From Balneolaceae bacterium (lineage in GTDB: Bacteria; Bacteroidota; Rhodothermia; Balneolales; Balneolaceae), in the NCBI GenBank assembly GCA_017640605.1, contig JAEPQH010000020.1, positions 1 through 32,000 on the forward strand: a DNA stretch of 32,000 nt. Reading direction: 5' to 3'. Shown in pieces: positions 9,246 through 23,468 of this stretch. The notes under the pieces are model-generated. The model did not search any database. It saw only the letters and a program-made list of their open reading frames with translations, and had not been told where the DNA came from. Each line of letters starts with the position of its first letter. The first letter of the stretch is position 1. The translations under genes were made by a program, and so were the position numbers.

Positions 9246-9327
9246 ACTTTGGTTTTTAATTTGATGTCCCGTTTTTGTTCATTCAATTGTAATAGCAGTG
9301 AACGTTAATTTAAAATTTGGTGAAAGC

Positions 9328-9669
9328 ATGAATAAATATATGCTCATATTATTTGAATCCTCAGAAAATTATGCCTCCATGACCCCTCAGGAGTATCAGA
9401 ACGAAATAAATGAACACGCAAAATGGATAACCGAGTTAGGGGAACGTTATCATTCAGGGGAACCGCTGGAAAATGAATCATACTCGATACGTGGGAAAGA
9501 TAAGATTGTAACCGATGGACCTTTTATTGAAGCGAAAGAATTGGTGAGTGGTTTTTACATAATACATGCAAATAACTTAGAAGAAGCCACTGAACTTTCG
9601 AAAGGCTGCCCAATTCTGCGATTAGGTGGTTCTGTTGAAGTGCGGCCTGTAATGCACTTTGAGATGTAA
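9328..9669 (+). CDS. YciI-like / DGPF-domain protein
   Basis: About 113 aa counted from ATG 9328 ('MNKYMLILFE', a typical YciI-family N-terminus; the track ORF starts at GTG 9298). Contains the 'DGPF' motif ('VTDGPFIEAKE'). The stop overlaps the sigma-factor start (TAATG). Confidence 0.8.
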   Translation: MNKYMLILFESSENYASMTPQEYQNEINEHAKWITELGERYHSGEPLENESYSIRGKDKIVTDGPFIEAKELVSGFYIIHANNLEEATELSKGCPILRLGGSVEVRPVMHFEM

Positions 9670-10913
9670 TGCAGCCAAAAAATGAAATAATCGGCCGTCT
9701 TTTCAGGCAACAAGCGGGAAAGATGGCCTCTATTTTAATTGGAATGTTTGGATTCCAACATGCTGAACTTATAGAAGATGCCATCCAAGATACTTTTGTA
9801 GCTGCACTAAAAGTTTGGGGGATGAAGGGACTTCCGGAGCATCCCGAAGCTTGGTTAATGAAAGTAGCCAAGCATAAAACTATAAATGAACTGAGGAAAA
9901 AAGGAAGGCATAAAGAGCTAAATAAAGAGTGGAAAATAACCAAAGAAGAGGATGTTCAACTAAACTCTGAAAGTTTTACTGATAAAACTCTGGTGCACAT
10001 AAAGGCACTTTTTGGGTGTTGTAATCCATTACTTTCCCCGAAATCTCAAATAATGATTACGCTAAAGTATGTATGTGGCTTCGGCGATAAAGAGATTGCC
10101 CGTGCATTATTTATGGAGCAAGCTGCAGTTCGAAAGGCAATATATCGGGCAAAGAATGTTTTAAGAGAGCATCAGAATTTTTTACTTGAGTTATCTACGC
10201 AGGAGCTGAAACAACGATTGCCAATTGTTGAAAAAGTTCTGTATCTGATGTTTAATGAGGGATACTCAACCAGCAAGTCTGATTCTGTGTTTGATGCCGA
10301 CCTTAGCTTCGAAGCGCTCCGGCTAATAGATTGGATACTAGAAACAGAAAACCTTTCTGATGCCAGTACACATGCTTTGTATGCGCTGATGTTATTTCAA
10401 TTTTCTCGCTATGAAGCAAGATGTGATAAAAACGGGATACCACTAAGTATTGAAGAACAGAATCGGGAAATGTGGAATAAACAGGTAATAAAGAAAGGAT
10501 TATTTCACCAAAAGAAATCAAGAGAAACGGAAAAGCTGTCGAGGTATCACATCGAATCCGGAATTGCTTCTATCCATAGTACCGCATCCTCATACAATGA
10601 TACGAACTGGGATCAAATAATAACTTTATACCGACAGTTATTGACTTTCGATGACTCTGTATCAGTGAGAACTAATTTGGCTATCGCACTATGCGAACAA
10701 GGAGAAATTGAAGAAAGCCTGAATCTTCTGCATTTGTTGGTTAAATCTGAGCAAAAGAATAATTCGGTTATTTATGCATCTATTGGAAGAGTGTATTCAA
10801 AAAGTGGAGAGATTGAAAAAGCGATATCAAGCTATAATCTAGCCAAGAAACACTGTTCAACAAGATATGAGAGAGCTTTTATTGATAAAAAATTGCTTGA
10901 ATTAACTTATTAA
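9669..10913 (+). CDS. ECF-type sigma-70 family factor with a roughly 240-aa C-terminal helical/TPR-like extension (ECF42-like)
   Basis: 414 aa. Region 2 'EDAIQDTFVAALKVW...EAWLMKVAKHKTINELRK'. Region 4 HTH 'GFGDKEIARALFMEQAAVRKAIYRAKNVL'. A long C-terminal extension ends in TPR-like repeats ('GRVYSKSGEIEKAISSYNLA'). Confidence 0.85.
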   Translation: MQPKNEIIGRLFRQQAGKMASILIGMFGFQHAELIEDAIQDTFVAALKVWGMKGLPEHPEAWLMKVAKHKTINELRKKGRHKELNKEWKITKEEDVQLNSESFTDKTLVHIKALFGCCNPLLSPKSQIMITLKYVCGFGDKEIARALFMEQAAVRKAIYRAKNVLREHQNFLLELSTQELKQRLPIVEKVLYLMFNEGYSTSKSDSVFDADLSFEALRLIDWILETENLSDASTHALYALMLFQFSRYEARCDKNGIPLSIEEQNREMWNKQVIKKGLFHQKKSRETEKLSRYHIESGIASIHSTASSYNDTNWDQIITLYRQLLTFDDSVSVRTNLAIALCEQGEIEESLNLLHLLVKSEQKNNSVIYASIGRVYSKSGEIEKAISSYNLAKKHCSTRYERAFIDKKLLELTY

Positions 10914-11182
10914 TCTACAACTACCCTGAATTAAAGCAGTAAACGTTGATTTACTCAATGAGTAGAAAAAAATGTGGATAATTCAATAAAAGAAGGACGA
11001 AGAGTATATGAAATGATGGTTTAGTGCTCAGATATCGTAAAAAGAAGTAGATTTTTATAGGTATAATTAAGTAGTTTTTTGAATAATAATGTGGAAAACT
11101 CTAAAATTTTCTGCATACTTAGGCTCTTTTCGTAAAAATAAATCAAAACTACAGGCATCAACTTACTCTACAGGGGTTTGAA

Positions 11183-13036
11183 ATGGTTGGGAAAAAACAC
11201 AAATGGCTATTAATACTTACGGTTGCCTTTTTAAGCACTGGTATTATTGCCCAAACATTACCCGGACAGGTAGCAGCTACCGATGTTCAGGAGGAGGCTG
11301 CTAAGTACGAGCAGTATTACGAAGTAATTCTTAACAACGCTTTGTCGGATTATTACCGGCGCGGGACTTTTATAGTTGACGCCAAAGCAACTCTCGAAAG
11401 AGTATTGGTTCCTCGAGGCTACGAAGTAATAGAGGGAGAAGAACCAGTCAGGATCGAAAATTTACCGGGACTTCCTTTTGTCCCCCCAAATCTACAGCGA
11501 TCCACTAATGGTACTACCGACAGCCTAAAGGCATCCGGTTTTGATGCGCGTTTCAGACTGACCCGACTTAATATTAAAGTACTGGTTGATACTTCTTATA
11601 GTGATGAAGATGTCGAGTTTGTTGAAGAAGCTACCTCATTGATTGCTAATGCTGATCCTTTTCGGGGTGATATTGTAACTGTAGAAAAGAAAGTTTTTCC
11701 AAGAAGTGCCCGAGCTATTCAGCAAGATGTTCGAGAACGAGCTGCAAATAATCAGGATGCAGAGAAAGAAGAACCTCAGGTTGAGTTGTTGGAACCGGTA
11801 ACCAATCAACAAGAAAATGCAGAACCCGAAAAAAACATGTTTTTGGGAATCGATTGGAATAATCCGCAACACCTTATCTATGTAATTGCAATTTTAGGGA
11901 TACTATTCCTTATTGCTGTATTGTTCGCTCTGTTGCGAAAGCCATCAAAAAGAGATGAAGAATATAGAATGCCTCCAATGCAAGGGTATGAAGGAATGAT
12001 ACCGGCATCGGCAGCTGATACTAAAAAGGAAGAGCCAAAAGGTCCGGACGCTAAAACTTTGGCACAACACGAAGAAGATAAGACCTACGTAACCAATTCT
12101 TGTATAAGTCATCCGGATATAGTAGCCGACTTAGTAGGGCAATGGATTGCTAGTGATGATGAGCAAGGCATTATACGTTCTGCAAGATCACTTAGCAGCG
12201 TGGATGAGAAATTGATTAACGTGTTGGAACCCCATTTAAAAGTAGAACACTACGAATCGGTTAAATTTGCTATTCAAAATTTAGAGCCTATTCCAATTGA
12301 TGAAAAAATAGAAGAGGTAAAGGCATTGCGACGAAGCATGCAGCAGGTTAATACTAAAAACGGTACTGCTGATTCCGGCTCTAATCTGTTCGATTTTGTA
12401 TATCAATTAACAGACGTTCAATTATTACACTTAATTAAAGAAGAATCGGACGAATTGGTGGCAATTCTGTTAGCACAAATTGCAGGCGAGCGAGCTGGTG
12501 TAATTCTACAGAAAATGGAGGATCAGAAACGGATATCAATCCTTCTTAAAATGGGAAAGATCAATAATATCCCAATATCGGTGTATAAAAAAGTGGCGGC
12601 CCATTTCTCCAATAAAGCCTTGTCGGTTTCGGATATGAAATACGTTGCTGCAGATGGTATCGACTCGATACTTACCACTTTGGAAACAATGCCGCTTTCG
12701 GAACAAGACGATTACGTGCGATCGATAGCCGAACAGGATCTGAATCTGGCAAAGCGTATCAAGAAGTTCTTTATTGGTTTTGATGATCTACCGAAAGTTA
12801 AAGACGAGTTTGTTCAAAGTGCACTGGAGGATATCCAAACAGAAACACTAATTCTGGCACTTAAAACAGCACCAGCTGCAGTGCGAGAAAAGATTCTGAA
12901 AGTGCGTCCGAAACGAGAGCAGCAGCTCATCCTTTCTGAAGTAGATAATCCTGCTGAGGTACCAAAAGCAAGTATTGAAGACGCACAGAAAACAGTATTG
13001 TATGCTGTTCGCCGAAAAATGAAGACTGAGGGCTAA
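11183..13036 (+). CDS. Membrane protein combining an FliF/SctJ-like periplasmic segment, a TM helix and an FliG-like cytoplasmic region (rotor-like fusion)
   Basis: 617 aa.
- Signal/anchor 'WLLILTVAFLSTGIIAQ'.
- Periplasmic aa ~123-173 'RLTRLNIKVLVD...ANADPFRGDIVTVEKKVFP' resembles the C-terminal periplasmic motif of FliF (RLSVAV...RGD..V....F).
- TM helix at aa 231-251 (nt 11873-11935).
- aa ~401-617 align by eye with the Thermotoga/E. coli FliG middle and C-terminal domains ('FFIGFDDLPKVKDEFVQSALEDIQTETLILALKTAPAAVREKILKVRPKREQQLILSEVD...IEDAQKTVLYAVRRK').
- An SD-like AGGGG lies upstream of the ATG. Confidence 0.8.
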   Translation: MVGKKHKWLLILTVAFLSTGIIAQTLPGQVAATDVQEEAAKYEQYYEVILNNALSDYYRRGTFIVDAKATLERVLVPRGYEVIEGEEPVRIENLPGLPFVPPNLQRSTNGTTDSLKASGFDARFRLTRLNIKVLVDTSYSDEDVEFVEEATSLIANADPFRGDIVTVEKKVFPRSARAIQQDVRERAANNQDAEKEEPQVELLEPVTNQQENAEPEKNMFLGIDWNNPQHLIYVIAILGILFLIAVLFALLRKPSKRDEEYRMPPMQGYEGMIPASAADTKKEEPKGPDAKTLAQHEEDKTYVTNSCISHPDIVADLVGQWIASDDEQGIIRSARSLSSVDEKLINVLEPHLKVEHYESVKFAIQNLEPIPIDEKIEEVKALRRSMQQVNTKNGTADSGSNLFDFVYQLTDVQLLHLIKEESDELVAILLAQIAGERAGVILQKMEDQKRISILLKMGKINNIPISVYKKVAAHFSNKALSVSDMKYVAADGIDSILTTLETMPLSEQDDYVRSIAEQDLNLAKRIKKFFIGFDDLPKVKDEFVQSALEDIQTETLILALKTAPAAVREKILKVRPKREQQLILSEVDNPAEVPKASIEDAQKTVLYAVRRKMKTEG

Positions 13037-13038
13037 CT

Positions 13039-14124
13039 ATGAAAAGAATAGCACTGCTTGGTTTTCTGATACTTATAGTTGGTAGGGTAGAAAATTCTCA
13101 GGCACAAACTCATGAAGAAGGTGTGCCCTACCAGATGGAATTGATTACAAATCAGATGGTGGATCAGTTAAACGATATTCCTGCAAACATACGTAGGGTA
13201 GCTGTTTATAAGATGAACTATAACGCCATGCGTTTTACGATGCAGGAAGTAGAATTCATCCGAGGTGAAATAGAATCATCTCTTCGAACTTATGCTGGCC
13301 TAACCGTACTTTCACCTCCTGAACTGGAGCCCAATGATAAAATGAAAATCTTTGGTAGCGACAGTACTCTTCAGATCCTAAATATTCAAGGTAGGTCGTT
13401 AGCTGATGTTTCTCCTGATTTTTTATCCGAAATTACTACAAAATATGGTGTAAATGGATTAATCGAAGTAGGACTACAGCGCCGTAACCCTGACGGCTTG
13501 ATCTTGTCGATACGAATGATGAACCCAAGCTCAAGAGAAATTGTATGGTCAAAAAGTTTTATTGCCAATCCATTTGAAGTGGTTGAGAAAGTAGATAAAG
13601 GCAATACTTTTATTCTTTCCTTTGGTGCCGGTTCGATGCAAACAGATTCTAAATTCAGGGCAGACACTTCTTTTGCCAATCAGGATACTTCGATAAGTAA
13701 TCCAGTGTTAAATTATGGAGCTAATTTCACTTATCGCCAGCCATTAAACAAAGAAAATAGTGCCTACTTAGGTTTTACAGGAGGTATAGATATTTTGCGT
13801 TCTACTCGAGATGAGGATTTTAACCTGATGCTTCTTCAATTGGGTGTTACCTATTATCAGGCATTAACAACCGAAAAGAACGAGGATATTGATGATTATC
13901 GAATGATGGTATTTCTTAATACCAATGTTAAGTTTCCAATTAGCTCAACCAAAGGTGAATTGTTTACTGCAAAGCCGGGTATCATGTTTAATATGAGTAA
14001 AAACCTTGGTTTATCATTTTACACAAGCTTGATTTTATCTGGCGAAGAATTGACGTTAAGCAATAACGATAGAATAACTTACAATAAGGTTGGATATGGT
14101 GTACATGCGGTTGTCAGATTCTAA
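13039..14124 (+). CDS. Secreted envelope protein: periplasmic alpha/beta N-domain plus a probable small outer-membrane beta-barrel
   Basis: 361 aa. Cleavable signal 'LLGFLILIVGRVENSQAQ'. The C-terminal half has alternating hydrophobic beta-strand patterns and ends 'GYGVHAVVRF' (a terminal Phe, typical of OMPs). The start is 2 nt after the upstream stop, with GAGGG upstream. Confidence 0.6.
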   Translation: MKRIALLGFLILIVGRVENSQAQTHEEGVPYQMELITNQMVDQLNDIPANIRRVAVYKMNYNAMRFTMQEVEFIRGEIESSLRTYAGLTVLSPPELEPNDKMKIFGSDSTLQILNIQGRSLADVSPDFLSEITTKYGVNGLIEVGLQRRNPDGLILSIRMMNPSSREIVWSKSFIANPFEVVEKVDKGNTFILSFGAGSMQTDSKFRADTSFANQDTSISNPVLNYGANFTYRQPLNKENSAYLGFTGGIDILRSTRDEDFNLMLLQLGVTYYQALTTEKNEDIDDYRMMVFLNTNVKFPISSTKGELFTAKPGIMFNMSKNLGLSFYTSLILSGEELTLSNNDRITYNKVGYGVHAVVRF

Positions 14125-14716
14125 AATTATACTATTACTCGCGTTGGTAGCATTTGCTGGCTATAGTTGTAAATCAACCGAAGCTGCACAAGAAACTACG
14201 CAACCAACTATGCAGTCCATGACAGATGTTGGAACCACTGAAAGTGCCAATCAAGCTGAAAAAGGAGAAGAACAGGGCAATCCTGTTATAGTAACTTACC
14301 GTAATGCAAGTTCAGCCATACAGATAACTTTAGACCCGAACAAAGATGAGTTTTATCTGGATCTAAAAGGAATGACTCCCACAGAATCCGACTCGATTAT
14401 TGTGGTGGATTCATCAATGGTTAAAAATCGTGCCCGCGATATTCAGTCTTTGTTGTCGAGTTATCGAAAAGCACAGGATTTATTTTATCTGGGGGAATAC
14501 AGAGAAGCTTTAGATGAGGTTGAAAAGACTCTCAAGATTCAAGAAACAGCAGATGCATACGCTCTTAAAGGAACCATCTTTTTCATGATGGAAAACATCA
14601 CAGCAGCGCGGGCAAATTGGAATAAAGCGGTTCAAATGGATCCAAATATTCCGGTGCCTAGCATACCTGAATTAGAAACTTTAATAAACGAACTACGAGA
14701 GGACGGTGGACAATGA
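14105..14716 (+). CDS. TPR-repeat protein, probable lipoprotein
   Basis: About 203 aa counted from ATG 14105 ('MRLSDSKIILLLALVAFAGYSC'; the track ORF starts at 14090). TPR-like repeats 'YRKAQDLFYLGEYREALDEVEKTLKI...AYALKGTIFFMMENITAARANWNKAVQMDP'. The stop overlaps the next start (ATGA). Confidence 0.65.
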   Translation: MRLSDSKIILLLALVAFAGYSCKSTEAAQETTQPTMQSMTDVGTTESANQAEKGEEQGNPVIVTYRNASSAIQITLDPNKDEFYLDLKGMTPTESDSIIVVDSSMVKNRARDIQSLLSSYRKAQDLFYLGEYREALDEVEKTLKIQETADAYALKGTIFFMMENITAARANWNKAVQMDPNIPVPSIPELETLINELREDGGQ

Positions 14717-15531
14717 GGCTTTCGTTAACCAATATACTAGGGGTAATTTTCAGCATTGGCATATTAGTATTCGGAATAACCGAAATAACCAATGTAACAA
14801 CAGTATTAAGCTCAATCCCGGCATTATCGCAATATACATTTTTGAATCTGCCTAGTTTATTTATTGTGATGGGTGGGATTTTAAATGCGGTTTTCATCAC
14901 CTATCAACCAAAATATGTAGGGCAGGCTTTCGCAGGACTTTTTTACCTATTCAGTCAGGCAAAAACTTCGTCAAAAACATTGGAAAATGATTTGGGTGAG
15001 ATGCTGGTGTGGAATGATCAGATCAAAAACGACAGAGTAAATGCACTCTCGAAATTGGAAGACGAACACACAGGAGAAGTCTCAGGTTATTTATTCTCAC
15101 TTATGAGTACCAATTATTCTAATGATGATATCAAATCCTTTGGCTCTAATCACATTGAAGAACAGTATTTTCGCCAACTTGTAGTAGTAGATGTGCTGCG
15201 TGCTATGGGTGCTGCCGCGCCTTCCTTTGGTATGTTTGGTACCTTATTTGGACTGGTAGTTATGCTTGGACAACTCGAAAATCCATCGGGTATGGGGCCT
15301 GGACTTGCAGCTGCTTTAATAACGACTTTATACGGTATTTCGCTTGCACGATTTATTTTTTACCCGATTGCAGAAAAAATTAAAAATGTAGCTCAGCTCA
15401 ATCGATTTCGTGAATACTTTATCCTCGAAGGTGTATTGTTGATTAATGAGAAAAAATCATCGTTTTACATTCAGGATAAGTTGAGCACTTATTTGAGAAG
15501 AGATTTCAAAAATAAGCAAGTAGCAGACTAA
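14713..15531 (+). CDS. motA: MotA/PomA-type stator proton (ion) channel subunit
   Basis: 272 aa. Two N-terminal TM helices, a ~95-aa cytoplasmic loop, then 'AAPSFGMFGTLFGLVVML' and 'GLAAALITTLYGISLARFIFYPIAEKI'. This is the MotA-type TM3/TM4 signature with both conserved prolines, not the ExbB/TolQ pattern. Confidence 0.85.
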   Translation: MRLSLTNILGVIFSIGILVFGITEITNVTTVLSSIPALSQYTFLNLPSLFIVMGGILNAVFITYQPKYVGQAFAGLFYLFSQAKTSSKTLENDLGEMLVWNDQIKNDRVNALSKLEDEHTGEVSGYLFSLMSTNYSNDDIKSFGSNHIEEQYFRQLVVVDVLRAMGAAAPSFGMFGTLFGLVVMLGQLENPSGMGPGLAAALITTLYGISLARFIFYPIAEKIKNVAQLNRFREYFILEGVLLINEKKSSFYIQDKLSTYLRRDFKNKQVAD

Positions 15532-15543
15532 GGGAGGCTTCCG

Positions 15544-16236
15544 GTGATTAAGCGCGAATACGGCGGGAATTCAGATATTCAGGAAGAACATATTGAGGAT
15601 CAGGAATGGTTGCTCACATATAGTGATATGATCACCCTGTTGCTTGCATTTTTCGCAATGCTTATTGCCGTTTCTTACGTTGATTTAAATCTGTGGGAGC
15701 AAATGAAGCAAGGACTACGGTCAGAAATATCTAAACAAGAGGATGTTCGTACCCCACTAGCTGAAGTAAAAGCAGATTTGGATTCCCTACTGGCTGAAGA
15801 AAAATCACAAGGCTTAGTAGATATTACACTCGACCGTGACGGTATAAAATTATTCTTTTCTAGTAGCTCGTTTTATCAATCGGGTGAAGCTCAATTATTA
15901 CCGACCGGCCAGAGAATTATCGACAAAGTAACACAAGCCATGAACGCGCTGGATTTCTACAAATTTAATGTAGATGTAGAAGGACATACAGACAATGTTC
16001 CCATCAACACGCCAATATATCCGTCGAACTGGGAATTGTCGGTGGCAAGAGCCTCCGGTGTGGTAAAATATTTTATTGAAGAAGGTATTGAAGCAGAACG
16101 ACTTAAAGCGTCGGGCTATGCCGATACCAAGCCGGTAGTGCCACATGTGGATGAAGAAGGCAGGAATATTATTGAGAACAGAGCCCTCAACAGAAGAATT
16201 GTTGTACGTATTTATTATCAATTGGCAACAAACTGA
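15544..16236 (+). CDS. motB: MotB-type stator subunit with an OmpA-like peptidoglycan-binding domain
   Basis: 230 aa. GTG start preceded by GGGAGG at a 6-nt spacing. 'WLLTYSDMITLLLAFFAML' is the MotB TM/plug signature with the channel Asp. The C-terminus has 'GHTDNVPI...NWELSVARA...GYADTKPV...NRRIVV' (OmpA family). Confidence 0.88.
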   Translation: MIKREYGGNSDIQEEHIEDQEWLLTYSDMITLLLAFFAMLIAVSYVDLNLWEQMKQGLRSEISKQEDVRTPLAEVKADLDSLLAEEKSQGLVDITLDRDGIKLFFSSSSFYQSGEAQLLPTGQRIIDKVTQAMNALDFYKFNVDVEGHTDNVPINTPIYPSNWELSVARASGVVKYFIEEGIEAERLKASGYADTKPVVPHVDEEGRNIIENRALNRRIVVRIYYQLATN

Positions 16237-16259
16237 TTTTTTAGGCACTAATCCGACAG

Positions 16260-16278
16260 TGCTTCAGTTATTGAAGCA
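16260..16278 (+). promoter_or_regulatory. Stem-loop ending 3 nt upstream of the start codon of the outer-membrane barrel gene
   Basis: TGCTTCA-GTTAT-TGAAGCA (perfect 7-bp stem). No T-run follows. The ATG at 16282 begins 3 nt after the stem. Confidence 0.4.
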
Positions 16279-16281
16279 AAA

Positions 16282-19215
16282 ATGCCTATGAAAATACTAT
16301 TACTTTCGCTGTCACTACTTTTTTTCGGGATTCAACAAGTACACGCTCAATCCATATCCGACTCAACCACTACCAGTATATTTTCGTCCAAAGCTCTATA
16401 TCAGTCAGATGTTTTAAGGGCGTTATCAGGACTCGCACCGGGGCTCATAATTCACTCTACAGGTGGAGTTTCCGGAACAGGGACAAATCCTGTTTTTCGA
16501 AGCTATTCGAGCTTAAATGCGCCCAGCAATCCATTAATAATAGTTGATGGCGTCAGGTTTGATGGGGCAAATAATCATAATAGCAGCGCATTTAACGGAG
16601 GAGGTTCTCTAGTTACTCCAAACCGATCTTTCGATCTTCATCCTTCCGAAATTGTTTCGGTGAATGTTTTAAGCTCACTAGAAGGTACATTTTTGTACGG
16701 CGAAGAAGCCACAAATGGAGTTATTGAAATTACAACCAGAAGAAACGCAATCGATTTAACCAGAGAAGGCTACGAGCTTACAATAGATCAAAGTGTTTAT
16801 TCCACGAGTATGTCGAGCCGACCGGATTATCAAAACCAATTTGGAATGGGTTTTAACGGTCAATATGGTCCATTTTTTAGTTCCTGGGGAGCCTCTTTTG
16901 ATAGCCGGGATCCTGCAGATTTTCCATCCAATTTTAATGGACTGGATAACGATGGTGCTGTATTAGTAGATCATCCTTATGGTTTTTACAATTTCACAAG
17001 TGATGGTGCTCCTGATTATGCCACCGAAGTGTATCGCTATGAAGCAAGAGAAACCCCTACCGATGCTTACTTCAGAAATGGTATTGGAAGTCGTTCATTT
17101 ATAGATTTGAATTACAAAAAAGGGAGCACTTCCTGGAGTTTCAATTACGCCGGAAATCAGGAAGAAGGCTTTACGCCCAACAATGCTTTTCTTAAAAACA
17201 GTTTTGGAAGCTCCGTTAAGTATCAACTTTTAGATAATGTACATGGTACATCAAGTTTACAGTTTTTATTTACGGATGTTAAAATGCCACCCTTATCGGC
17301 AGGAAGTGGAAGTGGAGTTGTAGAAGGTGGAGCAACAACAGGAGCATTCACCTACCTGTTTTTTACTCCGAGGTCTATCGACTTAGCACTACCAAATAGT
17401 TCGCCCGATAATAATGGCTTTACCTATTACCGCCCGGATATAATTCATCCTGTTTGGTTTGCAAATAATGCCTCAACCACTAATGAAACCAATCGCATAC
17501 TGGGTAAAACTGCCCTTCATTTTACTCCCTCAGATCGATTTCAATTCAACTACACCTATACATTTGATAGTTACGATGAGAATCAGGAGTACAAGCTAAA
17601 TCCTACGGGGACTTTCAACTTTCCTTATGTATTAGGGCTCTACCAAACCATTGAAATTGATCGAACGCTTCTCGATAATTTTGCACTTGCTACGTATCGT
17701 CCAAATTTAGGGAATAGGCTCTTTGCAGAAGTGCGACTCGGTGGGCATTATATGAGCGAAAATATTAATGAAAAAGGGCTGGAAAGCACCGATATACGAG
17801 AGTATGGTGTTTTTGAACACGATAATTTTAGGGTTCAAAGCTCTACGAATTCATTTACCAACGAGTTGATGGAAAGAGAGTTTGAACGCCGATCGTTTGG
17901 TGCATTTGGCTCGATGGAGTTAGAGCTTGATCGATGGATATATACTGATGTTGGCGTTCGCAGGCAGTGGAATCAATCGCTGCATCAACAAGATATGAAT
18001 GCGGTTTATCCTTACGTCACTTTTGGTGTAATTCCATCAAATGTGCTGGTGGATAATGACGAAATCCTGAGCAATTTAGATTTCTCATTTTCTTATTTCA
18101 CATCAGGCAGATCGATTTTAACAGAACTTGAAATTTTAGTACAAGATCGGCCCAGTGTTGGGTTAAACGATGAGTTAAAACCAGAAAGATCAATTGAAAA
18201 ACAAGTTGCGGCAACGGTCGGTCTATTTAAAGATCGAATTTCTTTCTCCGGGAAATATTATCAAAGAATACATACCGATTTAATCTCCAGAATTGCTGTA
18301 AATCCTACACAAGGCTTCGGCTCGATACTCGATAATTTACTCGAAATGGAAGTAGAGGGCTTTGATGCTCAGGCGGTATTAGTACCACTCGAAGGAAAAG
18401 TTAATTGGAAGATTATTTCGAATTTTAGCACCACCAAAGCAGACGTTAAAGAATACACAGGTACTTTTAATGCAATTCAATTAGGAAATAGCCAATCTTT
18501 TCGGGGAAATCTGGCTCAGGTTAATGAACCTTATCTAAGCATGTATGGTAGTACCGTTTTACGGGTTACAAGTGATATTCAGAGGGCAGATCCCAATATG
18601 AGATCTGTTCCCATTGGCACACCAATTATCGATAATAATGGAAATTACCTTACCGATCAGAATGATATTATCGGAAACCCAATACCCGACTGGAATCTCT
18701 CTACCTTACAACAAGTACGGTACAAGAACCTAAGCTTTTCTATTCAGATTGATTATCAAAGAGGGGGCGACATGTACAGTAGCTGGATTAGTTCACTGGT
18801 TGGAAGGGGTTTAATTTCATCAACGCTCGACAGAGAAGAGACATTTATTATTGAAGGTGTAAAATTTGATGGTACTCAGAACGATATTGAGATCAGTAAG
18901 CAACAATACTATTTCAGTAATCTGGGGTTTGGCCCCGATGAATTGAGAGTTTATGATATGACTCATTTACGCATTTCTCATATCGGGTTTTCATATCAAG
19001 TTCCGCAGCAATGGATTACAAAAACAGGGTTTAAAGAGGTAATTATTTCCTTTTCGGTAGAAAATGCCTTTCTGAAAATGTACAATATTCCAGAAGGTAC
19101 AGGTTTTGATCCGAACGTAAACTCGAATGGGGCAGGACTTAACAATCTAGGTTTTGAATACTTAACCGGTCCCGGTGCTCGTAGATTCGGTGGTTCGTTA
19201 CGAGTTCGCATATAA
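16282..19215 (+). CDS. SusC/RagA-like TonB-dependent-receptor-family outer-membrane protein (plug plus large beta-barrel)
   Basis: 977 aa. Signal 'LLLSLSLLFFGIQQVHAQ'. Plug-like region 'DVLRALSGLAPGLII...NPLIIVDGVRFDG...EGTFLYGEEATNGVIEITTRR'. The remainder is long and rich in aromatic/Gly beta-strands, ending 'RFGGSLRVRI'. Confidence 0.8.
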   Translation: MPMKILLLSLSLLFFGIQQVHAQSISDSTTTSIFSSKALYQSDVLRALSGLAPGLIIHSTGGVSGTGTNPVFRSYSSLNAPSNPLIIVDGVRFDGANNHNSSAFNGGGSLVTPNRSFDLHPSEIVSVNVLSSLEGTFLYGEEATNGVIEITTRRNAIDLTREGYELTIDQSVYSTSMSSRPDYQNQFGMGFNGQYGPFFSSWGASFDSRDPADFPSNFNGLDNDGAVLVDHPYGFYNFTSDGAPDYATEVYRYEARETPTDAYFRNGIGSRSFIDLNYKKGSTSWSFNYAGNQEEGFTPNNAFLKNSFGSSVKYQLLDNVHGTSSLQFLFTDVKMPPLSAGSGSGVVEGGATTGAFTYLFFTPRSIDLALPNSSPDNNGFTYYRPDIIHPVWFANNASTTNETNRILGKTALHFTPSDRFQFNYTYTFDSYDENQEYKLNPTGTFNFPYVLGLYQTIEIDRTLLDNFALATYRPNLGNRLFAEVRLGGHYMSENINEKGLESTDIREYGVFEHDNFRVQSSTNSFTNELMEREFERRSFGAFGSMELELDRWIYTDVGVRRQWNQSLHQQDMNAVYPYVTFGVIPSNVLVDNDEILSNLDFSFSYFTSGRSILTELEILVQDRPSVGLNDELKPERSIEKQVAATVGLFKDRISFSGKYYQRIHTDLISRIAVNPTQGFGSILDNLLEMEVEGFDAQAVLVPLEGKVNWKIISNFSTTKADVKEYTGTFNAIQLGNSQSFRGNLAQVNEPYLSMYGSTVLRVTSDIQRADPNMRSVPIGTPIIDNNGNYLTDQNDIIGNPIPDWNLSTLQQVRYKNLSFSIQIDYQRGGDMYSSWISSLVGRGLISSTLDREETFIIEGVKFDGTQNDIEISKQQYYFSNLGFGPDELRVYDMTHLRISHIGFSYQVPQQWITKTGFKEVIISFSVENAFLKMYNIPEGTGFDPNVNSNGAGLNNLGFEYLTGPGARRFGGSLRVRI

Positions 19216-19300
19216 TTGGCACACAAGTTGTACTTAAGATCTCAGAATTCGACCGATAAATTAGAGGTACGGTAGAAGAACCAAATTTTGAGAGGGCCAG

Positions 19301-19459
19301 ATGATGGAAAGAGATATTCGAAATATTATGATGCAGTTGGAAATGCTGTTGGAGGAATACCCTGAAGCAAAATTCTACATTTATAATGGAATTAGAACTA
19401 TGGTTTCAGATTTACTCAACTCTGTAGACTGCATTGACGACTTGAGAGAAGAGTCGTAA
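19301..19459 (+). CDS. Small hypothetical ORF (52 aa), not in the supplied track
   Basis: ATG 19301 to TAA 19457-19459. The product 'MMERDIRNIMMQLEMLLEEYPEAKFYIYNGIRTMVSDLLNSVDCIDDLREES' looks helical and acidic. GAGAGGG lies upstream. Hairpins follow. I recognise no homology. Confidence 0.3.
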   Translation: MMERDIRNIMMQLEMLLEEYPEAKFYIYNGIRTMVSDLLNSVDCIDDLREES

Positions 19460-19535
19460 ACGTTTTGTGTTAAGAACCCCTGATACCCCTCGGCTCGCTT
19501 TTTTGATTGTGCGAGCCGTATTGATAGATGACCCC

Positions 19536-19571
19536 AAAAGCCTCACTGGAAAGTGAGGCTTTTTCTTTTTT
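19536..19571 (+). terminator. Rho-independent terminator closing the 11183-19459 transcription unit
   Basis: AAAAGCCTCAC-TGGAAA-GTGAGGCTTTT hairpin followed by TTTTCTTTTTT. An additional hairpin CGGCTCGC-n12-GCGAGCCG lies at 19491-19518. Confidence 0.75.
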
Positions 19572-19656
19572 CAATTCTTCGTGATCTATCAGGTTTTGCT
19601 TCTTGGTGTTGCTTATAAACAAACATATGTTGATCATTTGCATTTATAATTAAGTA

Positions 19657-20178
19657 ATGGCTAGCACACCAAGCATAGAAATCCTTCTCTCCAAATATTT
19701 TAAACCCGAAGCAGAACGGGTATTAAAAGAACATCCTGAGCTTATAAATCAGGTTTTACCCATCTGTTTAACCAACGAAGCTCCAATGTGCTGGCGCGCA
19801 GCATGGGTAGCCCGAACTGTAATTGAAGAAAATGACGCAAGAGTTCGCCCCTACATCGATAAAATACTTGATGTATTACCTGAAAAAGAGGATGGTCATC
19901 AACGCGAATTGATGAAGTTACTTCAACGCATGAAGTTAAGCGACGATCAGGAAAGTATTTTATACGACCAATCTGTTACAATTTGGGAATCGGTTCGTAA
20001 AAAACCTTCGGTTAGATATACTGCCTTCGAACATATTATTAATATGGTATATAAGTATCCCGAGCTGGAGCAGGAACTAGACGCAATCACTCAGCCTCAA
20101 TATCTGAATTCATTAAGTCCGGGAGTTAAAGCCGGCGTATTCAAATCTCTCTCAAAGTTAAAAAAGAGCATGGAATAG
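19657..20178 (+). CDS. Hypothetical helical-repeat protein
   Basis: 173-aa ORF with coding-like composition and a helical, HEAT-like appearance. I recognise no motif confidently. Confidence 0.55.
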   Translation: MASTPSIEILLSKYFKPEAERVLKEHPELINQVLPICLTNEAPMCWRAAWVARTVIEENDARVRPYIDKILDVLPEKEDGHQRELMKLLQRMKLSDDQESILYDQSVTIWESVRKKPSVRYTAFEHIINMVYKYPELEQELDAITQPQYLNSLSPGVKAGVFKSLSKLKKSME

Positions 20179-20292: not shown

Positions 20293-22095
20293 ATGATTCT
20301 TTCTACCATCGATTGGGGAATTCTTGGTTTATTCTTTATAACGCTGTTAGCTATTGGATGGTGGGCTTCAAAATCGGCCGGGAAAAATACGAAAGAGTTT
20401 TTTTTAGGTGGCAGAAATATGCCGTGGTGGTTATTGGGGATTTCAATGGTAGCAACCACCTTTTCTGCAGATACACCAAATCTTGTTACAGGGTTAATCA
20501 GAGAAAATGGAGTGGCAAAAAATTGGGTGTGGTGGGCTTTTTTGATAACAGGATTGGTCACTGTATTTATTTATGCAAAACTTTGGCGACGATCTGAACT
20601 TACTACCGATCTGGGAATGTACGAACTTAGATATGGTGGAAAGGCGGCTTCATTTTTAAGGGGATTTCGGGCCTTATATCTGGGAGTATTGTTCAACTGT
20701 TTAATCATGGGTACTGTTACTCTCGCGGCCATTAAAATTGGATCGGTGATGTTCGGCTTGCAGCCAATAACCATTGTAATCAGCCTTTCGGTAATAGTCG
20801 TTTTTTACTCTGCATTGGGCGGAATAAAAGGGGTGATTTGGGCAGATTTTTTTCAGTTCGGGATTTCTATGTTTGGTGCCATTTACGCAGCTTATGTAGT
20901 TATTCAACAACCGGAAATTGGTAGTCTTTCCAATTTAATATCACATCCCAATGTTGTTGATAAAATCAGCTTTTTTCCTGATCTGTCTAATCCATCTATA
21001 CTCATAAGTATGTTCATTATTCCCATTGCTGTACAATGGTGGGCGGTTTGGTATCCCGGTTCAGAACCCGGTGGAGGTGGCTACATCGCGCAACGAATGT
21101 TAGCGGCAAAAGACGAGGAAAATGCGATGGGAGCAACCTTGTTATTCAATGTTGCACACTATGCACTTCGGCCATGGCCTTGGATAATTGTTGCATTGGG
21201 ATCGTTGATTTTATATCCCGATCTGATGAGTATAAAGCAAGAATTTCCAAATATTGCCGATCAATATCTTGGCGATGATATCGCCTATCCCGTAATGCTA
21301 ACCAAATTAGGTCCCGGTTGGTTAGGCTTGGTTGTGGCTTCTTTAATCGCGGCATTTATGTCTACGATTTCAACACATTTAAATTGGGGAGCCTCTTATC
21401 TGGTAAGTGATTTTTACCAACGCTTTGTTCGTCCTGAGGCTTCAGAAAAAGAGCTGGTGCAAACAGGCCGGGTTGCTACGATTATTTTAATGATCTTTTC
21501 CGCATCACTTGCTCTAACAATTCTGGAAGATGCCACCCAAGCCTTCGATCTTTTATTACTATCCGGGGCAGGTTCAGGAGCCATTTATTTATTGCGCTGG
21601 TTTTGGTGGAGAATTAATGCATGGACCGAAATCGCAGCTATGATTTCAGCTACTATTGTAGCTATTGTACTAGTTTTTTGGGTGCCAGACGAAATTGTAG
21701 CAACCACGCTCATCGATGGTTCAACGGTAAAGCTTCTTATCGCTGTTTGCATTACCACGCTGGTTTGGATTGGTACTACTTTTGTTACAAAACCCGAATC
21801 GATGGAAGTATTAATCAGCTTCTATAAAAAAGTACATCCGGGCGGACCGGGTTGGCAAAAAGTAATTGACAGTGCTAAACAAGCTAATGTAGAACTCGAT
21901 GTCGATAATACTTCTTGGGATTTACCTATTAGTTTGTTGAATGTATTTTTAGGCTGTATCGGAATTTATTCGGCGTTATTTGCCATTGGGTATTTTGTAT
22001 ATGGAAATTTTGGAATGGGACAGATTTTCGCCGGAATATTTGGAATGTCGATTTACTTCATGTTACGAACATGGCCCAAAATGAATCTTGAATAA
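20293..22095 (+). CDS. Sodium:solute symporter (SSS) family transporter
   Basis: 600 aa with about 13-14 hydrophobic helices. The overall layout and segments such as 'FFLGGRNMPWW', 'GGGGYIAQRMLAAK' and 'AAFMSTISTHLNWGASYLVSDFY' are typical of SSS family members. Confidence 0.8.
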   Translation: MILSTIDWGILGLFFITLLAIGWWASKSAGKNTKEFFLGGRNMPWWLLGISMVATTFSADTPNLVTGLIRENGVAKNWVWWAFLITGLVTVFIYAKLWRRSELTTDLGMYELRYGGKAASFLRGFRALYLGVLFNCLIMGTVTLAAIKIGSVMFGLQPITIVISLSVIVVFYSALGGIKGVIWADFFQFGISMFGAIYAAYVVIQQPEIGSLSNLISHPNVVDKISFFPDLSNPSILISMFIIPIAVQWWAVWYPGSEPGGGGYIAQRMLAAKDEENAMGATLLFNVAHYALRPWPWIIVALGSLILYPDLMSIKQEFPNIADQYLGDDIAYPVMLTKLGPGWLGLVVASLIAAFMSTISTHLNWGASYLVSDFYQRFVRPEASEKELVQTGRVATIILMIFSASLALTILEDATQAFDLLLLSGAGSGAIYLLRWFWWRINAWTEIAAMISATIVAIVLVFWVPDEIVATTLIDGSTVKLLIAVCITTLVWIGTTFVTKPESMEVLISFYKKVHPGGPGWQKVIDSAKQANVELDVDNTSWDLPISLLNVFLGCIGIYSALFAIGYFVYGNFGMGQIFAGIFGMSIYFMLRTWPKMNLE

Positions 22096-22109
22096 TTAAA
22101 ACAATTACA

Positions 22110-23459: not shown

Positions 23460-23468
23460 AACAATAAT

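What the first reader, a model, noticed from the sequence alone, without database searches (positions are those of the whole stretch)
11183..19215. Six-gene cluster joining a FliF/FliG-like rotor protein, a MotA/MotB stator and outer-membrane components, with no other flagellar genes nearby
**Gene content.** All six genes are on the same strand:
- FliF/FliG-like fusion (11183-13036)
- OM-barrel-like protein (13039-14124)
- TPR lipoprotein (14105-14716)
- MotA (14713-15531)
- MotB (15544-16236)
- SusC-like barrel (16282-19215)

**Operon evidence.** The junctions are a 2-nt gap, a 20-nt overlap, a 4-nt overlap, a 12-nt gap and a 45-nt gap. The only convincing terminator follows at about 19536-19571. 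This argues for one operon.

**Why it is unusual.** FliG C-terminal domains are known as the rotor surface that MotA pushes on. Here that pairing occurs without FliM/N, an export gate, rod, hook or filament genes. It sits next to proteins predicted to reach the outer membrane. That suggests an envelope-spanning, ion-motive-force-driven machine distinct from flagella, Ton, Tol, GldLM, Agl or Zorya. I do not recognise it as a described system.
Basis: partly seen in the sequence, partly recalled or inferred. Interest (0 to 1): 0.92.

Follow-up and report, generated by a model that had tools for sequence, protein, structure and literature searches.

The report
Flagellar-type rotor and stator without flagellum
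A conserved five-gene operon in marine Balneolaceae and in Fibrobacterota encodes a fused FliF-FliG rotor protein, a MotA/MotB ion-driven stator and two outer-membrane-anchored partners; at least one genome that carries it has no flagellum genes, so it looks like an undescribed envelope machine built from flagellar motor parts.

Summary
**Observation.** It is confirmed. All six ORFs, their junctions and the terminator sit exactly where stated, and the HMM hits are significant.

**Gene 1.** It is a natural FliF-FliG fusion with these parts:
- one periplasmic FliF RBM3-like ring-building domain carrying a long beta-hairpin;
- a transmembrane helix;
- a complete FliG (N, M and C domains) that keeps the torque-helix Arg and Glu but lacks the FliM-binding EHPQ motif.

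**Genes 2 to 5.**
- Gene 2 is an 8-stranded outer-membrane barrel with a TolB-N/LpoB-like periplasmic domain.
- Gene 3 is a TPR lipoprotein.
- Genes 4 and 5 are a flagellar-type (PomA/MotP-like) stator with plug, catalytic Asp and a peptidoglycan-binding domain.

**Conservation.**
- The conserved unit is these five genes, not six. They are colinear in 38 of 40 Balneolaceae genomes.
- The cassette recurs in Fibrobacterota MAGs and unassigned metagenome contigs, down to 22% identity, once with permuted order.
- The SusC-like gene follows only in the seven closest genomes.

**Non-flagellar context.**
- No flagellar gene lies in the window or in any fetched locus where neighbouring genes were annotated.
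- A published census finds only FliG, MotA and MotB in Balneola sp. EhC07, which carries the cassette.
- I found no description of this system in nine literature searches.

**Best model.** A switchless ion-driven rotor-stator module coupled to outer-membrane partners. Its output is unknown.

The parts
11042..11182 (+). Conserved upstream leader or promoter region of the operon. It contains one copy of the motif ATGTGGAWAAYTC at 11089; a second copy lies at 10972.
   Evidence: The region is about 90% identical among relatives whose synonymous sites are saturated. The motif occurs twice against 0.26 expected by chance. There is no Rfam hit and no covariation-supported fold. Its function is not established.
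11183..13036 (+). Gene 1: FliF(RBM3)-TM-FliG(N-M-C) fusion, 617 aa, the presumed rotor ring subunit.
   Evidence: Pfam FliG_C 8e-21 and FliG_M 1e-7. The family profile hits FliG structures at 8e-42 and FliF at 4e-3. AF2 model pLDDT 84. Foldseek gives full-length FliG at E 7e-10 and FliF RBM3/S-ring at E 1e-4. PF08345 matches 38 of 61 family members, best 7e-8.
11279..11689 (+). Periplasmic RBM3-like domain of gene 1 (res 33-169). Topology is alpha-beta-beta-alpha-beta with a 20-residue beta-hairpin. The hairpin tip (LPGLPFxPPN) and G162-D163 are the most conserved positions of the family.
   Evidence: Secondary structure. Invariant and near-invariant columns. FliF RBM3/collar matches.
11864..11935 (+). 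Transmembrane helix of gene 1 (res 228-251), preceded by an acidic low-complexity linker.
   Evidence: Helix H228-251 in the AF2 model. Alignment.
12050..13030 (+). Cytoplasmic FliG-like region of gene 1 (res 290-616). The torque helix keeps R578 and E586. The EHPQ motif is replaced by E421-S422-D423-E424.
   Evidence: Foldseek aligns 311-325 columns to full-length FliG. The alignment to T. maritima FliG is. R578 is more than 90% conserved.
13039..14124 (+). Gene 2: signal peptide, then a TolB-N/LpoB-like periplasmic domain (res 29-175), then an 8-stranded outer-membrane beta-barrel (res 191-360) ending in Phe.
   Evidence: No Pfam or NCBIfam hit. AF2 pLDDT 79. Foldseek matches TolB, LpoB C-domain (TMt 0.64) and OmpA/OmpX/NspA/OmpW barrels. 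Weak OMP_b-brl hits in 4 of 23 homologues. Always the gene after gene 1.
14090..14716 (+). Gene 3: TPR lipoprotein. It has a lipobox Cys, a variable linker, a conserved beta-rich segment and two C-terminal TPR motifs. The start is either TTG 14090 or ATG 14105.
   Evidence: TPR_1 4e-8 and TPR_2 7e-8. The Cys and the TPR motifs are conserved in alignment A6.
14713..15531 (+). Gene 4: MotA/PomA-type stator A subunit (272 aa). Key residues are R108 and E116 in the cytoplasmic loop, P170, T204-T205 and P218.
   Evidence: MotA_ExbB 9e-19. NCBIfam MotP 4e-33 and PomA 6e-28 against TolQ/ExbB at about 1e-3. PDB sequence hits are flagellar stators only, with PomA best at 6.5e-23. Residue positions.
15544..16236 (+). 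Gene 5: MotB-type stator B subunit (230 aa) with D28 in the transmembrane helix, a plug and an OmpA-like peptidoglycan-binding domain.
   Evidence: MotB_plug 1.5e-13 and OmpA 1.7e-16. C. sporogenes MotB 5e-27, with the LTYSD motif aligned.
16282..19215 (+). Gene 6: SusC/RagA-like TonB-dependent barrel. It is adjacent and possibly co-transcribed here, but it is not a conserved member of the cassette.
   Evidence: TIGR04056 2e-67, at 228 bits below the 368-bit cut-off, and Plug 1e-5. It is present downstream of motB only in L001-L006 and L016. No ORF of 80 aa or more follows before the terminator, so no SusD-sized partner is present.
19536..19563 (+). Intrinsic-terminator-like hairpin (12-bp stem followed by a T run).

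Best explanation
Genes 1 to 5 form one operon. It encodes a non-flagellar, ion-driven rotor-stator machine assembled from flagellar motor modules.

**Proposed mechanism.**
1. Gene 1 is a natural end-to-end FliF-FliG fusion. Its single RBM3-like periplasmic domain is predicted to oligomerise into an S-ring/beta-collar-like ring. The transmembrane helix places a full FliG (N-M-C) ring on the cytoplasmic face.
2. MotA5B2-type units (genes 4 and 5) anchor to peptidoglycan through the OmpA-like domain of MotB. They conduct H+ or Na+ past MotB D28 and push on the FliG torque helix (G1 R578/E586 against MotA E116/R108).
3. There is no FliM, FliN or CheY site, because the EHPQ motif is lost. The device should therefore be unidirectional and without a switch.
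4. There is no export gate, rod, hook or filament. Instead the ring's invariant hairpin tip faces two envelope partners that always accompany it: a TPR lipoprotein on a long tether (gene 3) and an 8-stranded outer-membrane barrel with a TolB-N/LpoB-like periplasmic domain (gene 2).
5. These partners either receive the mechanical output at the outer membrane or form the scaffold for the stators.

**Shown:** gene content, domain homologies, conservation, and the absence of flagellar genes nearby and in one host genome.

**Inferred:** ring formation, rotation, the contacts with genes 2 and 3, and the physiological output. My best guess for the output is an outer-membrane or cell-wall process rather than motility.
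For: **Domain identities.**
-.
- The stator is of the flagellar type: NCBIfam MotP/PomA/MotA at 1e-33 to 1e-24 against TolQ/ExbB at 1e-3, and only flagellar stators among the PDB hits.

**Rotor-stator interface is retained.**
- R578 is more than 90% conserved across the family.
- S585/E586 align to the D/E pair of the T. maritima FliG torque helix.
- MotA R108 and E116 are spaced by 8 residues, like E. coli R90 and E98. The E. coli residues are taken from PMC12505986.

**Genomic linkage.**
- The five genes are colinear in 38 of 40 Balneolaceae loci; the other two are cut by contig ends.
- The same cassette occurs in L041 and L046-L049. L044 and L050 are cut by the contig end. L042 has a permuted order.
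- One variant fuses gene 1 to gene 3.

**Selection.** dN/dS is at most 0.08.

**Non-flagellar context.**
- There are no flagellar genes in the 32-kb window or among the called neighbours of 10 distant loci.
- Balneola sp. EhC07 (L036) has FliG, MotA and MotB but no FliF, FliM, FliN, FlhA, FlhB, FliPQR, rod, hook or FliC in the census of PMC12199754, supplement 3.
- Gracilimonas tropica (L026) is tabulated with motility 'None'.

**Precedent.** Engineered and spontaneous FliF-FliG fusions assemble rings (PMC6079021 and PMC10941966 abstracts).
Against: - No experiment, complex prediction or imaging supports ring formation, rotation or the proposed periplasmic contacts.
- No axle or output protein is identified.
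- One distant variant (P0205) carries a LysM domain on the periplasmic side of gene 1. This would tether the presumed rotor to peptidoglycan and argues against free continuous rotation in that lineage.
- The MotA charged pair is not strictly conserved in the Fibrobacterota members.
- The model's pTM is only 0.40, so the arrangement between domains is unreliable.
- The absence of flagellar genes was checked at genome scale for only one cassette-bearing strain, and only through a published table.
- The literature search covers open-access papers and bioRxiv only.
Confidence: 0.6

Rival explanations
1. A non-rotary force transducer or tether that works like Tol-Pal or Ton. MotAB pulls on or conformationally cycles a largely static gene 1 assembly. 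That assembly is linked to peptidoglycan and, through the TolB-N-like barrel protein and the TPR lipoprotein, to the outer membrane. Its role would be envelope integrity or cell division.
For: - Gene 2 has a TolB-N/LpoB-like domain, and gene 3 is a TPR lipoprotein like non-proteobacterial CpoB (PMC12204202).
- Bacteroidetes lack identifiable Tol-Pal loci.
- The LysM domain on variant P0205 fits a tethered assembly.
- The genomic context is housekeeping genes in all loci.
- No motility is reported for Gracilimonas, and no gliding for Balneolaeota.
Against: - The stator is of the flagellar type, not the TolQR/ExbBD type.
- The partner is a full FliG with a conserved torque helix, plus a ring-building FliF domain. 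No TolA/TonB-like protein is present.
- The only known use of these modules is rotation.
Confidence: 0.2
2. A flagellar accessory: a second rotor/stator set, or a stator reservoir, that works with a canonical flagellum encoded elsewhere in the genome.
For: - Some Balneolaceae (Balneola vulgaris) are flagellated.
- JGI pipelines annotate the protein as 'flagellar motor switch protein FliG'.
Against: - Balneola sp. EhC07 has the cassette but no other structural flagellar genes.
- The cassette also occurs in Gracilimonas tropica, tabulated with no motility, and in Fibrobacterota MAGs.
- Gene 1 has its own membrane anchor and ring-building domain and lacks the FliM-binding motif, so it could not slot into a FliF/FliM/FliN rotor.
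- No flagellar gene lies within 10 kb in any locus where neighbours were annotated.
Confidence: 0.05
3. A decaying remnant of a lost flagellum with no present function.
For: [quoted passage not shown]
Against: - All five genes are intact in dozens of species.
- dN is 0.016-0.14 with dS saturated.
- The order is conserved from Balneolaceae to Fibrobacterota at 22-40% identity.
- The cassette includes three non-flagellar innovations: the fusion, gene 2 and gene 3.
Confidence: 0.02
4. An energiser for the adjacent SusC-like transporter, or a Zorya-like MotAB-based phage-defence system.
For: - The SusC-like gene follows motB after 45 nt with no terminator between them.
- MotB hits the ZorB models of PADLOC at 3e-19.
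Against: - The SusC-like gene is absent from 31 of the 38 complete Balneolaceae loci. It does not follow motB in any distant locus where the next gene was identified.
- There is no ZorA, ZorC or ZorD hit.
- The ZorB hit is explained by general MotB homology.
- The flanks are housekeeping genes, not a defence island.
Confidence: 0.03

Closest known systems
Bacterial flagellar motor core: FliF MS-ring, FliG and the MotAB/PomAB stator
   Same: - Homologous FliF RBM3 domain, full FliG (N, M, C) and a flagellar-type MotA/MotB with plug, catalytic Asp and peptidoglycan-binding domain.
- The conserved torque-helix Arg/Glu and the MotA Arg/Glu pair imply the same stator-pushes-rotor mechanism.
   Different: - No RBM1 or RBM2.
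- No FliM or FliN, and the EHPQ FliM-binding motif is lost.
- No type III export gate or ATPase.
- No rod, hook, filament or LP rings.
- FliF and FliG are one polypeptide.
- Two unrelated outer-membrane-anchored partners are always encoded with it.
- It occurs in genomes without a flagellar regulon.
FliF-FliG fusion proteins: spontaneous or engineered in Salmonella and Vibrio, and the natural Chlamydiaceae fusion (Bergeron 2016, PMC4768692)
   Same: - One polypeptide joins the MS-ring protein to FliG.
- The engineered fusions assemble rings.
- The chlamydial one occurs in a non-flagellated organism.
   Different: - The chlamydial protein is about 330 aa. It keeps RBM2 plus one further RBM and only a FliG_M-like region. 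It lacks the SpoIIIAG-like RBM3 and is thought to work with the injectisome, not with MotAB.
- Here it is the reverse: RBM3 only, a full FliG, and a dedicated MotAB.
Tol-Pal system (TolQRA, TolB, Pal, CpoB)
   Same: - A 5:2 inner-membrane motor is encoded with a protein carrying a TolB-N-type domain, a TPR (lipo)protein and an OmpA-like peptidoglycan binder.
- The genomic context is housekeeping genes.
   Different: - The motor is MotAB-type, not TolQR-type.
- The transducer is a FliF-FliG ring protein, not TolA.
- The TolB-N-like domain is fused to an outer-membrane barrel and lacks the beta-propeller.
- There is no Pal.
Periplasmic stator scaffolds of elaborate flagellar motors: Vibrio MotX/MotY T-ring and FlgO/P/T H-ring; Campylobacter/Helicobacter PflA/PflB
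   Same: TPR or Sel1-repeat proteins and outer-membrane-anchored (lipo)proteins that surround the rotor and hold the stators. This is a possible role for genes 2 and 3.
   Different: - No sequence match to these families was found.
- Those scaffolds assemble around a rod and LP rings, which are absent here.
Other 5:2-motor machines: ExbBD-TonB, GldLM/PorLM of T9SS, AglRQS-Glt, ZorAB, SiiAB
   Same: Ion-motive force at the inner membrane is used to do work at or beyond the outer membrane.
   Different: - None of them uses FliG or a FliF-type ring.
- Their A subunits are of ExbB/TolQ type or unrelated (GldL). Here the A subunit groups with flagellar stators.

Membership tests
Bacterial flagellum | FliG rotor protein with N, M and C domains and a charged torque helix | tested here: met
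   Pfam FliG_C 8e-21 and FliG_M 1e-7. The profile hits FliG structures at 8e-42. Foldseek aligns 311-325 columns to full-length FliG. R578 and E586 are conserved.
Bacterial flagellum | FliF MS-ring protein with RBM1, RBM2 and RBM3 | tested here: not met
   Only one RBM3-like domain is present. PF08345 matches 38 of 61 family members, best 7e-8, and Foldseek matches RBM3/S-ring. PF01514 (RBM1/2) gives no hit on the window protein at E up to 1. It is also not among the 25 families most often matched by the 61 members. The periplasmic region is only about 150 aa.
Bacterial flagellum | C-ring switch: FliM and FliN, and the FliG_M EHPQR motif that binds FliM | tested here: not met
   No FliM or FliN in the window or among called genes of 10 distant loci. 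EHPQ aligns to E421-S422-D423-E424. FliM and FliN are not detected in Balneola sp. EhC07.
Bacterial flagellum | Type III export apparatus, rod, hook, filament and LP rings | tested here: not met
   Absent from the 32-kb window and from the annotated flanks of the distant loci. They are absent from the published per-genome list for Balneola sp. EhC07. The genome of the window's own organism could not be searched.
Bacterial flagellum | MotA/MotB-type stator with plug, transmembrane Asp and peptidoglycan-binding domain | tested here: met
   MotA_ExbB, MotB_plug, OmpA, D28 and the PomA-like TM3/TM4 motifs.
Ton / Tol-Pal | ExbB/TolQ-type A subunit, ExbD/TolR B subunit, and a TonB/TolA transducer | tested here: not met
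   NCBIfam TolQ and ExbB score only E about 1e-3, against MotP at 4e-33. No ExbB or TolQ structure appears among the PDB hits at E up to 0.01. No TonB or TolA domain appears in any of the six proteins.
Zorya (ZorABCD / ZorABE) | ZorA with a long cytoplasmic tail, plus ZorC/ZorD or ZorE effectors | tested here: not met
   In PADLOC only MotB matches the ZorB models, at 3e-19. MotA matches no ZorA model, and there are no ZorC, ZorD or ZorE hits.
GldLM/PorLM (T9SS motor) and AglRQS-Glt | GldL/GldM or AglR/Q/S (TolQR-like) motor subunits with their track or Glt partners | tested here: not met
   None of the six proteins matches any Pfam or NCBIfam family other than those listed, and no Gld, Por or Glt family is among them. 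The A subunit is flagellar-type. No direct comparison with Glt proteins was run.
Chlamydiaceae-type FliF-FliG fusion | About 330 aa, with RBM2 plus one RBM, fused to a FliG_M-like region only, and no stator | not tested
   Only the published description was compared. By that description the domain content differs: here it is RBM3 plus a full FliG, with MotAB.
SusC/RagA TonB-dependent transporter (gene 6 only) | Full-length TIGR04056 match above cut-off, a Plug domain and an adjacent SusD-like partner | tested here: inconclusive
   TIGR04056 scores 228 bits against a 368-bit cut-off. Plug is 1e-5, above its gathering score. No ORF of 80 aa or more lies between 19215 and the terminator at 19536.

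The most novel reading that the evidence does not exclude
A free-standing, non-flagellar rotary motor. It would be a ring of FliF(RBM3)-FliG fusion subunits spun by MotAB. It would deliver torque or tension to an outer-membrane barrel and a TPR lipoprotein, in bacteria that have no flagellum. It would be the first use of the FliG/MotA torque interface outside flagella. It would also be a living example of a working 'half motor', bearing directly on how the flagellar motor arose or what it can become after the flagellum is lost.
Probability: 0.5. Interest if true: 0.95.

Novelty: categorically new. Interest (0 to 1): 0.86.

Why it matters
FliG and the MotA-FliG torque interface are known only from flagella. 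A conserved operon pairs them with outer-membrane partners in genomes that have no export gate, rod, hook or filament genes. If the operon is functional, three things follow.

1. It would add a new class to the ion-driven 5:2-motor machines (Ton, Tol, Gld, Agl, Zorya, Sii).
2. It would give a minimal rotor-stator pair of three proteins, with no switch and no secretion system. That is attractive for structural and single-molecule work.
3. [quoted passage not shown] EhC07. A phylogeny of its FliG and MotAB against flagellar ones could tell whether it is a pre-flagellar relative or a repurposed remnant.

It may also reveal an envelope-maintenance mechanism in Bacteroidota-related lineages, where Tol-Pal loci have not been identified.

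Tried and rejected
I redid it with database homologues.

**Searches that gave little.**
- Taxonomy of distant family members through cluster look-ups gave almost no names.
- Fibrobacter succinogenes proteomics (PMC6851124) concerns ExbBD-type proteins and says nothing about this cassette.
- The MotAB evolution paper (PMC12505986) and the force-transducer paper (PMC12204202) do not mention a FliG-linked non-flagellar system.

**The conserved 5' leader.** I tested it as a riboswitch or structured RNA. There is no Rfam hit, and RNAalifold gives -1.3 kcal/mol with no compensatory pairs. By eye the spacing does not fit a sigma-54 promoter. An ECF-type promoter is possible but untested.

**FlgO.** A link between gene 2 and FlgO, suggested by 'FlgO' in the EhC07 census, was not supported by Pfam.

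**Not possible here.** I relied on the published census instead.
Full report
**1. The observation.**

The junctions are a 2-nt gap, a 20-nt overlap, a 4-nt overlap, a 12-nt gap and a 45-nt gap. The best terminator-like hairpin in 10.5-20.5 kb is at 19536-19563 (12-bp stem), and none separates motB from the SusC-like gene.

The Pfam and NCBIfam results are:
- Gene 1: FliG_C 8e-21 and FliG_M 1e-7.
- Gene 4: MotA_ExbB 9e-19.
- Gene 5: MotB_plug 1.5e-13 and OmpA 1.7e-16.
- Gene 3: TPR motifs.
- Gene 6: Plug 1e-5 and TIGR04056 SusC/RagA 2e-67.
- Gene 2: nothing.

Pfam annotation of the other 19 large ORFs of the window shows no flagellar gene.

**2. Anatomy of gene 1.**

An alignment of 13 close homologues and of 61 family members down to 19% identity shows this layout:
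- an N-terminal hydrophobic helix;
- a conserved periplasmic domain (about res 25-180);
- an acidic low-complexity linker;
- a transmembrane helix (228-251);
- a variable cytoplasmic linker;
- a helical region from 290 to 617.

*AlphaFold2 model.* The model built on the 61-sequence alignment has mean pLDDT 84.4 and pTM 0.40, so the arrangement between domains is not reliable. The periplasmic domain folds as helix-strand-strand-helix-strand, which is the ring-building-motif topology. Its first two strands are about 20 residues long and form a hairpin.

*FliG.*
- Foldseek against the PDB gives full-length FliG first (E 7e-10 to 1e-8, with 311-325 aligned columns).
- The family profile hits FliG chains at 8e-42. 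It aligns to residues 12-322 of full-length Aquifex FliG.

*FliF.*
- Foldseek then returns a long series of FliF RBM3/S-ring/collar structures (E 1e-4 to 1e-3, target TM about 0.5).
- The family profile hits FliF residues 405-560 at 4e-3.
- Scanning all 61 members individually, 38 match Pfam YscJ_FliF_C (PF08345), with best E 7e-8. All 61 match FliG_C, 60 match FliG_M and 56 match FliG_N. PF01514, which covers RBM1 and RBM2, is not among the 25 most frequently matched families.

Gene 1 is therefore a natural FliF-FliG fusion that keeps only the RBM3-type domain of FliF and the whole of FliG.

*Conserved and lost positions.*
- In the alignment to T. maritima FliG, R578 matches the torque-helix Arg, and S585/E586 match the following Asp/Glu pair.
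- R578 is more than 90% conserved family-wide.
- The EHPQ residues of FliG_M align to E421-S422-D423-E424. From established knowledge, EHPQR is the FliM-binding motif, so this protein is not built to bind FliM.
- The most conserved positions of the entire family are periplasmic: the hairpin tip L94-P95-G96-x-P98 and G162-D163.

**3. The other four conserved genes.**

*Gene 2.* Its AlphaFold2 model has pLDDT 78.9. The protein has:
- a signal peptide;
- an alpha/beta domain (res 29-175);
- eight long beta-strands (191-360) ending in a C-terminal Phe.

Foldseek matches TolB through its N-terminal domain, the LpoB C-domain (target TM 0.61-0.64), and the 8-stranded barrels OmpA, OmpX, NspA, OmpW and Ail.

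*Gene 3.* It has a conserved lipobox cysteine, a variable linker, a conserved beta-rich segment and two C-terminal TPR motifs.

*Gene 4.*
- It scores against MotP, PomA and MotA models at 1e-33 to 1e-24, but against TolQ and ExbB at only about 1e-3.
- Its only PDB relatives are flagellar stators, with PomA best at 6.5e-23.
- It keeps the TM3/TM4 prolines, the PomA-like Thr-Thr (T204, T205), and a basic/acidic pair R108/E116 spaced by eight residues like E. coli R90/E98. The E. coli residues are quoted from PMC12505986.

*Gene 5.* It has the plug, D28 in the motif LTYSD, and an OmpA-like domain. Its best match is Clostridium sporogenes MotB at 5e-27.

*Ion type.* The best matches are Na+-type stators, which hints at sodium coupling in these marine organisms. 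That is not a test.

**4. Comparative genomics.**

*Balneolaceae.* A scan of one genome per species found 40 loci, all in Balneolaceae. They include Gracilimonas tropica DSM 19535 and Balneola sp. EhC07. L001, a MAG contig, is 99% identical to the window. tblastn shows genes 1 to 5 colinear in all 38 loci not cut by a contig end.

*Gene 6.*
- It follows motB only in L001-L006 and L016.
- In G. tropica and EhC07 the next gene is on the other strand.
- The unit is therefore five genes, and the SusC-like gene is a lineage-specific neighbour.

*Wider family.* An exhaustive HMMER search of 1.8 billion cluster representatives found 109 proteins at E<1e-30. Over a hundred were full-length (about 600 aa) relatives, down to 21% identity. 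I fetched eleven of their contigs:
- L041, L046, L047, L048 and L049 have the same five genes in the same order.
- L044 and L050 have the same order but are cut by the contig end.
- L042 has all five genes with gene 1 moved to the end.
- L043 has gene 1, a gene 3 homologue, MotA and MotB, and no gene 2 between them. Its upstream ORF, cut by the contig end, matches TPR and CarboxypepD_reg. Its gene 1 also carries an N-terminal LysM domain (E 1.8e-4).
- L045 has gene 1, MotA and MotB. Its gene 1 reads through into a lipoprotein-signal-like helix plus a TPR, which amounts to a fusion of gene 1 with gene 3.

Two of the distant proteins carry the NCBI labels Fibrobacterales and Fibrobacteres. The flanks are housekeeping genes, and no flagellar genes are among them.

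*Selection.* Between the window and its 90%-identical relatives, dN is 0.016-0.14 while dS is saturated (above 1.3). That gives dN/dS of at most 0.08 for all five genes.

**5. Is it part of a flagellum?**

- Table 1 of PMC5167729 lists G. tropica with no motility. The paper states that gliding has not been reported for Balneolaeota, while Balneola vulgaris is flagellated.
- Supplement 3 of PMC12199754, a census of 54 flagellar proteins in 11,365 genomes, is more telling. [quoted passage not shown]
- Apart from FliG (and FlgO), the non-flagellated Barnesiella shows the same kind of generic hits (it has FlgJ and FlgT instead). Apart from MotA and MotB, I read these (sigma factors, enhancer-binding regulators, an ATPase homologue, OmpA- or Sel1-like proteins) as homologues of general families rather than flagellar parts.
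- No FliF, FliM, FliN, FlhA, FlhB, FliPQR, rod, hook or flagellin was detected in EhC07, which is the strain of L036 and carries the cassette.
[quoted passage not shown] It raises the possibility of 'an alternative function' but does not follow it up.

I could not search the window's own genome.

**6. How it most likely works.**

*Shown.* The operon encodes four things:
- a protein with the ring-building domain of the MS-ring fused to a complete FliG;
- a flagellar-type stator;
- an outer-membrane barrel with a periplasmic TolB-N/LpoB-like domain;
- a tethered TPR lipoprotein.

These are inherited together across phyla.

*Inferred from the established mechanism of the homologous parts.*
- Gene 1 forms a ring. 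FliF RBM3 forms the 32-35-mer S-ring, and engineered FliF-FliG fusions form rings (PMC6079021, PMC10941966).
- MotA5B2 units bind peptidoglycan, conduct ions past D28 and turn the FliG ring through the conserved charged ridge.
- Without FliM, FliN or CheY there is no switching.

*Speculative.*
- The invariant hairpin tip on top of the ring binds the TPR domain of gene 3 or the N-domain of gene 2. The ion-motive force would then be turned into motion or tension at the outer membrane.
- Alternatively, genes 2 and 3 are a stator scaffold of the PflAB or MotXY kind.

*Output.* No gliding or other motility is reported for these organisms, and the cassette sits among housekeeping genes. I therefore favour an envelope process over locomotion, but with low confidence.

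**7. Caveats.**

- The LysM variant would tether the 'rotor' to the wall. It is the best argument for a non-rotary, Tol-like force transducer, which I keep as the main rival (0.2).
- The MotA charged pair is not strictly conserved in the Fibrobacterota members.
- The literature tools cover only open-access papers and bioRxiv. Nine searches found no description of the system.
- The nearest precedent is the Chlamydiaceae FliF-FliG fusion. It has a different domain make-up and no stator.

**8. Comparison and novelty.**

*What it works like.* Most probably the flagellar rotor-stator pair.

*Whether it is a flagellum.* It is not. RBM1 and RBM2, the C-ring switch, the export apparatus and the axial structures were tested and not found.

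*Other known systems.* It is not Ton or Tol, because the A subunit is of the wrong type and there is no TonB or TolA. It is not Zorya, because there is no ZorA, ZorC or ZorD. It is not Gld or Agl.

*Verdict.* I file it as a new kind of system built from known modules. Its existence, conservation and non-flagellar context are well supported (about 0.85). Its rotary mechanism is plausible (about 0.5-0.6). Its function is unknown.

Noticed in passing
window 10972-11182: The roughly 140 nt before the gene 1 start codon are about 90% identical among Balneolaceae genomes whose synonymous sites are saturated. The motif ATGTGGAWAAYTC occurs twice, at 10972 and 11089, 117 nt apart. There is no Rfam family and no covariation-supported RNA fold. 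It is probably a promoter or regulator-binding region, possibly ECF-type (GGAAAAC...CATAC).
   Followed up: partly
L043 (P0205, GCA_003557245.1) and L045 (P0261): Two architectural variants of gene 1. P0205 has a LysM domain N-terminal to the RBM domain (E 1.8e-4). P0261 reads through from FliG_C into a lipoprotein-signal-like helix plus a TPR, which is a fusion of gene 1 with gene 3. In L043 the ORFs flanking the cassette differ from gene 2: the upstream one matches TPR and CarboxypepD_reg, and the downstream one has no Pfam hit.
   Followed up: partly
window 16282-20178: The SusC/RagA-like barrel has no SusD-like partner, and its TIGR04056 match starts at model position 107, so the N-terminal extension is missing. 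Together with the 173-aa ORF at 19657-20178 (no Pfam hit), it is present only in the seven closest genomes. It looks like a lineage-specific insertion between motB and the sodium:solute symporter gene.
   Followed up: partly
window 9298-10913: A YCII-domain protein is followed, with a 1-nt overlap, by a 414-aa ECF-type sigma factor carrying DUF6596 and a C-terminal TPR. From memory this resembles the ECF42-type pairing. The pair lies upstream of the cassette in many Balneolaceae loci, but at variable distance (directly upstream in the closest relatives, about 9 kb away in L008, L009 and L037).
   Followed up: no
window 20293-25402: A run of same-strand genes: a sodium:solute symporter, a GH109-like/GFO oxidoreductase, a nucleotidyl transferase and an APH-family kinase. 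From memory this looks like an AmgK/MurU-type amino-sugar (MurNAc) salvage cluster.
   Followed up: no
window 27492-29549 (-): A 685-aa protein with a C-terminal Por_Secre_tail sorting domain (E 2e-11), which suggests the organism has a type IX secretion system. A similar T9SS cargo gene neighbours the distant cassette in L042.
   Followed up: no
window 14090-14124: The start of gene 3 is ambiguous. TTG at 14090 gives an N-terminus MDMVYMRLSDS that resembles homologues (MDMEYKVLFDS in L010). The region also encodes the conserved C-terminus of gene 2, so conservation cannot decide between them.
   Followed up: partly
window 262-3371: Methylmalonyl-CoA mutase (with a B12-binding domain), immediately followed by its MeaB GTPase chaperone. 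This is ordinary metabolism and unrelated to the finding.
   Followed up: no
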